From contig JASGHJ010000002.1 of assembly GCA_047602405.1 (NCBI GenBank), forward strand, positions 1,984,001 to 2,048,000: DNA of 64,000 nucleotides, given 5' to 3'. The DNA comes from Anaeromyxobacteraceae bacterium (GTDB lineage Bacteria; Myxococcota; Myxococcia; Myxococcales; Anaeromyxobacteraceae). The position numbers and the translations under genes are program-made. Shown here one piece after another: positions 9,519 to 11,789 of the stretch. Under the pieces are notes generated by a model. It was given only the letters and a program-made list of their open reading frames with translations, had not been told where the DNA came from and did not search any database. How positions within the stretch are numbered: the first letter of the stretch is position 1; each line of letters begins with the position of its first letter.

Positions 9519-9580
9519 CAGGCGTTCCCCGTCGGCAGAAGTGGCCGTGGGACCTCCGCCGTCGGCATGCGTGTCCGCAG

Positions 9581-9828
9581 GAGCCAAACGGACCTCCGCG
9601 ACAGCGCTTGCTCGGACGGGTTTGAGACGGAAGAGATTGCCGGAACCGTTGCTGTTCCACGGCGGTGATCGCGCAGCAGGCCTGCGGACCATGTGCGCGT
9701 GACGGCGTCGTGCGCTGAAGCGCACGGCGCCGTCCCCGCGCGATGGTTCCTTGGCCTGCAATGCGACATGTGGGGACGGTACCTCGCCCGTCGCTCGCTG
9801 CGCGCTGCTGCGGAGGCCCGTTTGGCTC
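9581..9828. repeat. 27-bp imperfect inverted repeat pair
   Basis: 9581-9607 GAGCCAAACGGACCTCCGCGACAGCGC vs 9802-9828 GCGCTGCTGCGGAGGCCCGTTTGGCTC (24/27 complementary). Confidence 0.75.
9676..9759 (+). repeat. ~84-bp long-hairpin element, copy A
   Basis: GCAGGCCTGCGG...GTGACGGC-hairpin-GCCGTC...CCTTGGCCTGC; homologous to the reverse complement of 11588-11669. Confidence 0.75.
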
Positions 9829-9886
9829 TCCGGCGTGGAGGACGATGGTGCGGCCGTGACTGCTGGGTGCTGATGAACGACCAACG

Positions 9887-9934
9887 GGTTGGCACTGCGG
9901 TTGGCACTGCGGTTGGCGTTGCGGTTGGCGTTGT
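9887..9934. repeat. 4 x 12-bp tandem repeat
   Basis: GGTTGGCACTGC x2, GGTTGGCGTTGC, GGTTGGCGTTGT. Confidence 0.9.
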
Positions 9935-10089
9935 GACGACGTGCTCACTCAACGCCTCGCGCCTGTCACCCGCCGAGTCTCATTCACCGTTAGACAGAAT
10001 GGTTGGACCCGCTGTCACGCGAACGTGGGTTACTCCGCGAAGCTGCGAAACCCCACGGCGCAGAGCCACAGCGGGAGGCGGGTCCAACC

Positions 10090-11184
10090 ATGGAGAGCGT
10101 ACGATTCGTCGGTCTCGACGTCCACGCAGACAGCATCGCCATCGCGGTCGCTGAGCCCGGCCGGGGAGAGCCGAGCGCTTTGGCGGTCGTCGCAAACGAC
10201 ACCGCGGCACTGCTGAAGCGCCTGCGACGGCTCGGTACCATCAAATGCTGCTACGAGGCTGGTCCAACAGGGTTCGGGCTCTACCGAGCGCTCAACGCCG
10301 GCGGCGTCGAATGCGTCGTGGTCGCGCCTTCGTTGGTGCCTATGAAGGCCGGCGATCGCGTCAAGACCGACCGGCGGGATGCCGTGAAGCTCGCCCGGTT
10401 TCTGAGGTCTGGAGACCTGACCGAAGTCCACGTGCCCGACGAAGCCACCGAGGCCATGCGGGATCTCGAGCGCGCGCGAGATGCCGCGAAGAAGGCTGAG
10501 CGCGTAGCCCGTCACCAGCTCGGGAAGTTCCTTCTCCGTCATGGGCGGCGCTGGACAGGGAAGACACGGTGGACTCGCGACCACCTGGCGTGGGTTCGGG
10601 TCCAGCATTTCGAGCACGAGGCGCAGCAACGGGTCCTCGAGGACTACCTGAAGACGGTGGAAGACGTGGGGGAGAGGGTTCGCCGGCATACCCGCAGCAT
10701 CGAGGAGCTCGTGGAGAGCTGGAGCCGGATGCCCCTGGTGAAGGCGCTACAGTCGCTACGCGGCGTCAACCTCATCACGGCCACGGTGCTCGCAGCGGAG
10801 CTCGGCGACCTGGACCGGTTCGCCACTGCCCCCGAGCTGATGGGCTACCTCGGCCTCGTCCCCTCGGAACACTCGAGCGGAGAAACTCGGCAGCAAGGGA
10901 GAATCACACGCGCCGGGAACGGCCACGCTCGGCGCATTCTCGTCGAGGCCGCCTGGGCTTACCGGTACCGAGCAGCGAACAGCCCTGCCCTCAGGAAGAG
11001 AAGTCGAGGCTTGTCGGAGGAGGTCTTGCGAATCGCCTGGCGTGCCCAGGAGCGGCTCTGCGGTCGCTATCGGAAGCTCACGGGACGCGGGATGAACAAG
11101 AACCGCGTCGTCGTTGCCATCGCGCGCGAGTTGGCGGGATTCGTCTGGGCCATCGGGCGCCAGCCACAACTCCTAAAGGCGTAG
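10090..11184 (+). CDS. IS110-family transposase/recombinase
   Basis: VGLDVH, YEAGPTG, KTDRRDA (DEDD RuvC fold), GLVPSEHSSG serine motif; GGGAGG RBS. Confidence 0.95.
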   Translation: MESVRFVGLDVHADSIAIAVAEPGRGEPSALAVVANDTAALLKRLRRLGTIKCCYEAGPTGFGLYRALNAGGVECVVVAPSLVPMKAGDRVKTDRRDAVKLARFLRSGDLTEVHVPDEATEAMRDLERARDAAKKAERVARHQLGKFLLRHGRRWTGKTRWTRDHLAWVRVQHFEHEAQQRVLEDYLKTVEDVGERVRRHTRSIEELVESWSRMPLVKALQSLRGVNLITATVLAAELGDLDRFATAPELMGYLGLVPSEHSSGETRQQGRITRAGNGHARRILVEAAWAYRYRAANSPALRKRSRGLSEEVLRIAWRAQERLCGRYRKLTGRGMNKNRVVVAIARELAGFVWAIGRQPQLLKA

Positions 11185-11445
11185 CTGTGACGCGTTCGGG
11201 CGGCGAGGGCGGTGGACGACTTGGTCCGGCCCAAAGGGGAATCCTCGTATGAACTATGGGCAGGGCCGTGAAGCCTGATGCCCGCTGTTAGACCGAGGCA
11301 GCCCCCGACGGATTCAGGTCATGCGGTACCCAACCCGCGAATATCAGTCTGATCCGCCGTCGCTCTAGTTCAGGTCGACCACCGCCTTGGCCGCCCGAAC
11401 GCAGAAACGAAAAAGCCGACCCTGCGACCGGGCCGGCTTCGTTGA
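11185..11445 (+). ncRNA. Predicted bridge/seekRNA region (boundaries approximate)
   Basis: ~260-nt non-coding right end containing target-matching segments at 11249-11256 and 11283-11291 and a donor-matching segment at 11341-11347. Confidence 0.7.
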
Positions 11446-11587
11446 CGGGTCCAACCATATCAGTTCATCACTTGCCACCCAGCAGTATCGGCCGTTCGCA
11501 GTCCGCCACGCTCCGGAGGCGAGACGTGCCCCCGCAGCGCCGGCCGGCGGAGGTCGGGCTCTCCACGTCTCCAGCATCTCAGCGAAT

Positions 11588-11669
11588 GCAGGCCAAGGGA
11601 TGTGGGCGTGTGACGGCATGGCGCGCGAAGCGCGCTGTGCCGTCACACGCAACTCAACCGCAGGCCTGC
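11588..11669 (-). repeat. ~82-bp long-hairpin element, copy B
   Basis: Inverted homologue of 9676-9759; core GCGTGTGACGGCA-TG-GCGCGC-GAA-GCGCGC-TG-TGCCGTCACACGC. Confidence 0.75.
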
Positions 11670-11789
11670 CGCGGCCTGAACGATCGCAGCGGCCCCGGTT
11701 CCGGGCGTCTGTTCCATACACGGACCGACGCAGCCGGCCGGCGTCGCGGGGGCGCGTCGAGCCCCCAAGGTCACGCCCGCCAACGGAGG

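What the first reader, a model, noticed from the sequence alone, without database searches (positions are those of the whole stretch)
11185..11463. Readable bridge/seekRNA: the IS110 right end carries guides matching both strands of its own target
Seen: joining the flanks at the shared AG core rebuilds the empty site CACCGTT-AG-TTCATCAC. The non-coding right end contains ATGAACTA (11249-11256), an exact 8-nt match to the target bottom strand across the core. It is followed by CGCTGTTAG (11283-11291), which matches the top-strand left flank CACCGTTAG (9985-9993) at 7/9, and both mismatches are wobble-compatible. ATATCAG (11341-11347) matches the element's own right end plus core (11457-11463). 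Known: IS110/IS1111 recombinases use such ncRNAs to specify target and donor. Inference: an intact RNA-guided recombinase with a specificity that may be uncharacterised and reprogrammable.
Basis: partly seen in the sequence, partly recalled or inferred. Interest (0 to 1): 0.9.

Follow-up and report, generated by a model that had tools for sequence, protein, structure and literature searches.

The report
IS1111-type jumping gene with guide RNA
An intact-looking jumping gene, present four times in this genome, carries a non-coding tail whose short segments match its landing site and its own end and change in step with them in relatives, so it likely works as an RNA-guided recombinase of the kind described in 2024: a clear new example, not a new mechanism.

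Summary
Observation confirmed, with one correction. The 1,470-bp element (9994-11463) has 13-bp subterminal inverted repeats, a DEDD transposase and a folded right-end region. Four copies sit in the same site. Across 73 non-redundant relatives, 11249-11256 tracks the target's right side, 11287-11289 its left side and 11343-11345 the element's own end. Added: two handshake-like bases (11292, 11348) match the opposite partner; a junction promoter is conserved; a fourth guide (donor bottom strand) is at most about 3 nt. The guide-predicted 9-mer GTTAGTTCA occurs 4 times in the pre-insertion genome, and all 4 are occupied. All lie in a ~335-bp hairpin repeat; 0 of 25 arms with a mismatch are occupied. 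Expression and activity are untested. This is a new member of the known IS1111-group bridge/seekRNA elements, close to ISSfr2 (52.5% identity) and, by eye, ISCARN28. The scan reported this kind four times on other DNA. Interest 0.27.

The parts
9994..11463 (+). IS1111-group IS110-family element, 1,470 bp, counted with one copy of the AG core at its right end
   Evidence: 4 copies in G000 at 99.8-100% identity with identical ends
9992..9993 (+). AG core at the left junction (second copy at 11462-11463)
   Evidence: AG at both expected places in 95 of 122 untruncated loci with a repeat pair; empty paralogous sites carry one AG
9999..10011 (+). left subterminal inverted repeat, 13 bp, 5 nt inside the core
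   Evidence: 100% complementary to 11446-11458; same spacing in relatives
11446..11458 (+). right subterminal inverted repeat, 3 nt inside the core
10090..11184 (+). DEDD transposase/recombinase, 364 aa; D10, E56, D94, D97 and S263-G264 invariant
   Evidence: PF01548 + PF02371; NF033542 254 bits vs cut-off 140; invariant columns among 30 homologues; catalytic role inferred from IS621 (PMC11208158 passages)
11192..11402 (+). predicted bridge/seekRNA: a 32-bp outer stem encloses a target loop and a donor loop; RNA ends are inferred
   Evidence: fold of 11185-11445 z = -5.3, 0 of 200 shuffles; outer stem; 48 of 53 scorable relatives have an enclosing stem of at least 15 bp; inner stems with several pair types
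11249..11256 (+). 5' target guide ATGAACTA; reads as the bottom strand at +5..+1, the core and -1, so it would pair with the top strand
   Evidence: matches 38, 60, 67, 66, 62 of 71 at +5..+1 vs shuffled 18-23; -1: 61/72 vs 47.5; 70 of 85 changed positions in sister pairs match their own target, 0 swapped (+1..+4)
11287..11291 (+). 3' target guide GTTAG (top strand -3..-1 plus core); 11286 may add a U-G wobble at -4
   Evidence: 44, 65, 71 of 73; 36 of 48 changed positions in sister pairs match their own target, 0 swapped
11292..11292 (+). handshake-like base of the target loop: matches donor +1, not target +1
   Evidence: 70/73 vs 47.2 shuffled against the donor; 14/73 vs 17.7 against the target; only 3 informative sister changes, 3 of 3 agree
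11318..11320 (+). candidate remnant of the fourth guide (GTC; donor bottom strand +2, +1 and one core base); weak
   Evidence: no covariation at +1 or +2; weak at +3 (25/67 vs 17.8) and +4 (34/67 vs 25.8), where this element mismatches
11341..11347 (+). donor guide ATATCAG (end of the right repeat, 3-nt terminus, core)
   Evidence: -3, -2, -1 match 65, 73, 73 of 73 vs 53, 52, 54 shuffled; 8 of 9 sister changes agree
11348..11348 (+). handshake-like base of the donor loop: matches target +1, not donor +1
   Evidence: 47/73 vs 18.8 against the target; 21/73 vs 25.2 against the donor; 8 of 12 sister changes agree
11442..11447 (+). -35-like hexamer TTGACG of a predicted circle-junction promoter
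   Evidence: at least 5/6 to TTGACA at 16-18 nt in 62 of 73 relatives; 0, 1, 0 in three shifted controls
9995..10000 (+). -10-like hexamer CAGAAT, 17 nt from the -35 only when the ends are joined
   Evidence: at least 4/6 to TATAAT in 50 of 73; no promoter-like site in the linear element
11464..11787 (+). right arm of the host repeat (about 335 bp, long hairpin); the element sits at its inner end
   Evidence: 31 arms at 16 loci in G000; fold
9558..9890 (-). left arm of the host repeat, inverted to the right arm; a subtype that lacks the target 9-mer

Best explanation
This is an intact-looking, recently multiplied IS1111-group insertion sequence whose right end likely makes a two-loop guide RNA that the transposase would use to find GTT-AG-TTCA(T) in the target and ATATC-AG at its own joined ends. 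Shown by sequence and comparison: the element's ends, four near-identical copies, guides that change in step with targets and with the element's end across relatives, two cross-matching bases, a conserved junction promoter signal, and full occupancy of perfect sites. Inferred from IS621, ISEc11 and related work: the element forms a circle; the joined ends make the promoter TTGACG-17-CAGAAT; transposase and RNA are made; the target loop opens the target at the AG core and pairs with both strands; the donor loop holds the circle junction; strands are cut beside the core and exchanged; 11292 and 11348 pair with the incoming partner and favour insertion. Read on the opposite DNA strand, the layout equals that of IS621 (long 5' guide, short 3' guide followed by a handshake base). 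The site lies in a dispersed non-coding hairpin repeat, which likely gives the element harmless landing places. Whether the circle is cut out or copied out is not decided here.
For: Family and intact catalytic residues. End geometry shared by 95 of 122 loci. Position-by-position covariation in 73 non-redundant elements. Sister-pair control: 70/85, 36/48, 8/9, 3/3 and 8/12 changed positions follow their own DNA, none the swapped one. Guides fall in the unpaired parts of the alignment's consensus fold, and the flanking stems show several pair types. GTTAGTTCA occurs at 4 places in the pre-insertion genome, all 4 occupied; 0 of 45 one-mismatch places are occupied. Among 29 repeat arms with an inner end: 4 of 4 perfect sites occupied, 0 of 5 with 8/9, 0 of 20 with 7/9 or less. 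Contigs of three other metagenome runs carry a near-identical left junction with other upstream sequence, and one contig of a fourth shows the empty site with a single AG (one contig each, depth 2-4, likeness 90). Guide order matches IS1111 seekRNAs: the segment complementary to the top strand lies 5' (PMC11187229, Results parts 1-2).
Against: No expression, binding or recombination data. The fourth guide expected of a two-sided donor loop is not supported beyond about 3 nt. Donor-side covariation rests on few independent changes: 58 of 73 ends are ATC, and 8 of 73 mismatch at -3. Two of the four sites mismatch the guide at +5. Some relatives fit poorly (L002: 5' guide CCCAAACT against a target that reads CCCGACCT). 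The single-sequence minimum-energy fold pairs 11252-11254 with 11287-11289, so the open loop rests on the alignment fold. The core columns were partly fixed by my filter and give no evidence.
Confidence: 0.93

Rival explanations
1. SeekRNA-only model: the RNA guides target choice, but the element's ends are held mainly by the protein at the 13-bp inverted repeats; the ATATCAG match serves to read the flanked right end during excision and is not one half of a true donor-binding loop.
For: The donor bottom-strand guide is nearly absent. 5 of the 7 donor-guide positions vary little. For ISEc11, a short 82-nt RNA with only target matches was the main bound species, and target-derived flanks were needed for circle formation (PMC11187229).
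Against: Donor guide -3..-1 changes with the end in CTC, AGC, ATG, CCT, AAC and GAG elements. 11348 tracks target +1 and 11292 tracks donor +1, which is expected if both loops sit in one complex.
Confidence: 0.25
2. The element recognises the folded hairpin repeat (structure or a host protein bound to it), and the guide match is secondary.
For: All 4 copies lie at the same position of one repeat family. IS1111 members that sit in folded structures (attC, REP) are known (PMC11187229).
Against: 25 arms with the same architecture but at least one mismatch to the guide are empty. Relatives use unrelated targets that their own guides spell out. No perfect 9-mer lies outside the repeat in this genome, so a structural contribution is not excluded.
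Confidence: 0.07
3. The matches are chance or relics, and the region is not a functional guide RNA.
For: A 7-nt target match at 11366-11372 is indeed chance. No Rfam family reaches its gathering score.
Against: Covariation far above every one of 2000 shuffles at 5' guide +1..+5 and 3' guide -3..-1, upheld in sister pairs.
Confidence: 0.01

Closest known systems
IS1111-group seekRNA elements ISEc11, ISKpn4, ISPa11, ISPst6 (Siddiquee et al. 2024, PMC11187229; abstract, Results parts 1-2 of 4, section 13 and a supplement search seen)
   Same: Subterminal repeats with 7-nt left and 3-nt right extensions, long non-coding region downstream of tnp, two target matches in the same order, junction promoter, GL-P-SG motif, insertion into a folded repeat.
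   Different: Different target; a 364-aa protein, longer than the 330-350 aa given for typical IS1111 transposases; donor guide and handshake-like bases are readable here.
ISCARN28 / ISSfr2 / ISEc45 branch of ISfinder (Durrant et al. 2024, PMC11208160, passages and supplement rows; Siddiquee source data)
   Same: ISSfr2-family protein at 52.5% identity over 98% (hit H9). ISCARN28 shares motifs along the whole length by eye (not aligned) and is one of six elements for which Durrant predicted guides, target and donor.
   Different: Only predicted there in the passages seen; the figure itself could not be viewed. This element and its target were not found in the supplements searched.
IS621 and ISCro4 bridge recombinases (PMC11208160; PMC11208158 and PMC13626964, passages)
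   Same: Target loop and donor loop, 2-nt core, handshake bases just 3' of the short guide that match the non-cognate partner, insertion into repetitive palindromes.
   Different: RNA in the right end, guides read the opposite strand, AG core instead of CT, long inverted repeats, donor loop with one strong guide only. Protein similarity is limited to the C-terminal domain (E about 3e-8).

Membership tests
IS110 family | DEDD (RuvC-like) domain plus Transposase_20 domain with catalytic serine | tested here: met
IS110 family | Specific target, no target-site duplication beyond a short shared core | tested here: met
   4 of 4 copies in ACCGTT-AG-TTCA; empty paralogues with one AG
IS1111 group | Subterminal inverted repeats of 7-17 bp with short terminal extensions | tested here: met
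   13 bp, perfect; geometry conserved
IS1111 group | Long non-coding region downstream of tnp, short left end | tested here: met
   left end 96 bp (9994-10089), right end 279 bp (11185-11463)
IS1111 group | Transposase falls in the IS1111 clade of a family tree | not tested
   no tree with named ISfinder proteins was built; nearest named hit ISSfr2; length 364 aa is above the typical range
IS1111 group | Promoter formed at the circle junction | tested here: met
   sequence signal only: 62 of 73 for -35, 50 of 73 for -10; activity untested
seekRNA / bridge RNA | Two guide segments matching both target strands and covarying with the target | tested here: met
bridge RNA (IS621 type) | Donor loop with two guides, one for each donor strand | tested here: inconclusive
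   one guide clear; the second weak, about 3 nt, mismatched at +3 here
bridge RNA (IS621 type) | Handshake bases matching the non-cognate partner | tested here: met
   one position per loop (11292, 11348); the second positions (11293, 11349) show no covariation
seekRNA / bridge RNA | RNA is expressed and co-purifies with the transposase | not testable with these tools
   needs small RNA-seq or RIP-seq
seekRNA / bridge RNA | Circular intermediate; recombination redirected by changing the guides | not testable with these tools
   needs junction PCR and a plasmid assay

The most novel reading that the evidence does not exclude
This branch uses a one-sided donor loop: one 7-nt guide plus a handshake base reads the right end, while the protein holds the 13-bp repeats in place of the missing fourth guide. 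That would make a three-guide recombinase with a fixed AG core, mechanistically between the seekRNA and bridge-RNA models, naturally reprogrammed to dozens of targets. Here it has filled every perfect site in an undescribed family of giant paired-hairpin repeats.
Probability: 0.3. Interest if true: 0.5.

Novelty: new member of a known kind. Interest (0 to 1): 0.27.

Why it matters
It adds a clean, probably active example from a 74% GC host to a family that is being developed for genome editing, with its guide positions mapped base by base. The set of 73 relatives is a natural table of guide-target pairs with an AG core. It shows which positions matter (-3 to +5) and supports handshake pairing in an IS1111-group branch, which bears on the open difference between the seekRNA and bridge-RNA models. 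The full occupancy of perfect sites suggests strict specificity in the cell. None of this is a new mechanism.

Tried and rejected
1) The 9-nt top-strand guide with two wobbles: rejected for 11283-11285. 2) A self-blocking segment: TAGTTCA (11366-11372) is complementary to the 5' guide, but relatives do not keep it; taken as chance. 3) A full fourth guide: four registers tested and a loop-anchored test on 67 of 73; only a weak signal at +3/+4, not controlled for kinship. 4) Expression: no RNA holder listed among 6 runs; this says nothing either way. No end-to-start joint (circle) was listed in 4 DNA runs laid as contigs with patchy cover; also uninformative. 5) Rfam: 4 hairpin-type matches, all under gathering score, none in 11185-11463. 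7) Leads from memory for the repeat (attC site, IS91 end) were not tested; six weak Y1 transposase matches exist in the genome (one over cut-off), and none was linked to the repeat. 8) ISAzs32 as nearest named element: dropped, its motifs differ by eye. Rows dropped before the covariation count: 216 sequences (L001-L215 plus the window) -> 179 with a near-full transposase -> 136 with a repeat pair -> 108 with both flanks and the expected core spacing, after removing 5 misplaced and 3 duplicate loci by name -> 73 below 90% identity.

Full report
Observation. The element runs from 9994 to 11463 (1,470 bp, one AG core included). It has perfect 13-bp subterminal inverted repeats at 9999-10011 and 11446-11458 and a 364-aa transposase at 10090-11184 that hits PF01548, PF02371 and NF033542 (254 bits, cut-off 140). 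D10, E56, D94, D97 and S263-G264 are invariant in 30 homologues; their catalytic role is inferred from IS621.

Copies and sites. The genome (6.16 Mb, 74% GC) holds four copies at 99.8-100% identity with open frames. All four lie in (C/T)ACCGTT-AG-TTCA(T/A). The three other copies differ from the window's copy at 2-3 positions, none in the right end. This points to recent movement (inference).

Relatives. From 215 fetched loci plus the window, 179 had a near-full transposase, 136 a repeat pair, 108 both flanks with the expected spacing, and 73 remained below 90% identity over the 129 aligned RNA columns. The end geometry core-5 nt-repeat ... repeat-3 nt-core is shared; AG stands at both places in 95 of 122 untruncated loci. 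I filtered on the core, so the core columns carry no weight below.

Guides. In an all-against-all scan, 15 RNA-DNA column pairs exceeded expectation by more than 0.2; 12 lie on the proposed guide diagonals or handshake positions. 11253-11249 match target +1..+5 on the bottom strand in 62, 66, 67, 60 and 38 of 71 elements (shuffled means 18-23, maxima 29-35). 11287-11289 match target -3..-1 in 44, 65 and 71 of 73. 11343-11345 match the element's last three bases in 65, 73 and 73 of 73. Shuffling ignores kinship, so I also took 36 disjoint nearest pairs: where guide and DNA both differ between sisters, both follow their own DNA in 70 of 85, 36 of 48 and 8 of 9 positions, and never the swapped one. 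The donor side rests on few changes (58 of 73 ends are ATC).

Correction. 11283-11285 do not track the target; 11284 is G in 72 of 73, and 11283 closes a stem with 11258. The top-strand guide is GTTAG, perhaps with a U-G wobble at 11286. A chance 7-nt target match at 11366-11372 (1 of 71) shows why single-locus matches are not enough.

Additions. The base after the 3' target guide (11292) matches donor +1 (70/73 vs 47.2) and not target +1. The base after the donor guide (11348) matches target +1 (47/73 vs 18.8) and not donor +1. This is the pattern named handshake pairing in IS621, where such bases favour strand exchange (PMC11208158, passages; PMC13626964, passages). Only one base per loop shows it. 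With the DNA strands swapped, the layout equals IS621's (inference). A guide for the donor's other strand is at best GTC (11318-11320): no covariation at +1 or +2, weak signal at +3 and +4, and a mismatch at +3 in this element. Joining the ends gives TTGACG-17-CAGAAT; a -35 of at least 5/6 is present in 62 of 73 relatives against 0, 1 and 0 in shifted windows, a -10 of at least 4/6 in 50 of 73. The linear element has no promoter-like site.

Fold. 11185-11445 folds at z = -5.3. A 32-bp stem (11192-11223 / 11371-11402) encloses two loops; 48 of 53 scorable relatives have such an enclosing stem. The alignment fold leaves the guides unpaired and supports stems 11243-11246/11295-11298, 11258-11260/11281-11283, 11307-11310/11358-11361 and 11323-11326/11335-11338. 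The single-sequence fold pairs three bases of each target guide with each other, which the alignment does not support. No Rfam family fits.

Specificity in this genome. The covarying positions predict GTT-AG-TTCA. With the four copies removed in memory, that 9-mer occurs 4 times on both strands (0.78 expected by a fourth-order Markov model), and all 4 are the insertion sites; none of 45 one-mismatch places is occupied. The sites lie at the inner end of a ~335-bp repeat that folds into a long hairpin and occurs as inverted pairs: 31 arms at 16 loci. Of 29 arms with an inner end, 4 of 4 perfect sites are filled and 0 of 25 imperfect ones (1 in 23,751 if placement were random among arms). A strong match to the repeat was found in 1 of 36 other genomes of the genus (G010). 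Because no perfect site lies outside the repeat, a role for its structure is not excluded. In public DNA runs, contigs from three runs show a near-identical left junction with other upstream sequence, one shows the empty perfect site with a single AG, and two bridge an empty repeat pair (single low-depth contigs, probably from related organisms).

Mechanism. Shown: ends, copies, covariation, occupancy. Inferred: circle, junction promoter, RNA-protein complex, cutting beside the core, strand exchange helped by the handshake bases. Cut-out versus copy-out is open: ISEc11 left no detectable empty donor (PMC11187229), IS621 did (PMC13626964), and a preprint argues for copy-out (10.1101/2025.10.25.684509, abstract only).

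Comparison and novelty. Durrant et al. predicted a bridge RNA in 93% of IS1111-group elements, mostly in the right end, often with donor bases in a multi-loop, and worked through ISCARN28 (PMC11208160, passages). Siddiquee et al. showed seekRNAs for four IS1111 members with the same guide order as here (PMC11187229). The nearest named protein found is ISSfr2-family at 52.5%. This element or its target did not appear in four literature searches (listings only) or in the supplement searches of both papers for Anaeromyxobacter and ISAde. One file of each supplement set was unreadable, three of Durrant's files were cut, figures are not held, and the Science papers on ISCro4 were not read, so handshake bases in IS1111 elements may be in print. 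The scan itself has four earlier notes on other genomes with the same kind of finding, including handshake bases and the opposite-strand reading; I reached these readings, before seeing the notes, and they are not independent support.

Verdict. Real, well supported, and a new member of a known kind. Interest 0.27. The boldest open reading is a one-sided donor loop (probability 0.3).

Noticed in passing
window 9558-9890 and 11464-11787; 16 loci in G000; L217 (G010): A ~335-bp non-coding repeat, each arm a long hairpin, set as inverted pairs around a short variable spacer: 15 pairs (one fused and truncated) and one single arm. It resembles an oversized REPIN. Found strongly in 1 of 36 other genomes of the genus. 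What moves it is unknown.
   Followed up: partly
window 10079-10091: A third copy of the 13-bp subterminal repeat ends in the transposase start codon and is inverted to the left repeat (14 bp). L002 shows the same with its own repeat variant (by eye). It could be an autoregulatory site or hide the start of translation in read-through RNA.
   Followed up: no
G000 C1:164238-165200, C1:1073760-1074722, C1:1256789-1257751, C2:3207121-3208092: A second IS110-family element in four copies, with a ~290-bp non-coding region upstream of the gene and similar flanks at all four sites; likely a left-end bridge RNA.
   Followed up: no
window 11412-11440: GC-rich hairpin between the predicted RNA and the right repeat; terminator-like on the minus strand, which would stop read-through into the element from the right.
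   Followed up: no
L113, right end: The target loop appears split by an extra ~180 bp with two 3' guide-like segments, perhaps a duplication or a guide swap in progress.
   Followed up: no
window 9887-9935: Three to four copies of a 12-bp unit in the spacer between the repeat arms; spacers at other loci also hold short tandem units.
   Followed up: no
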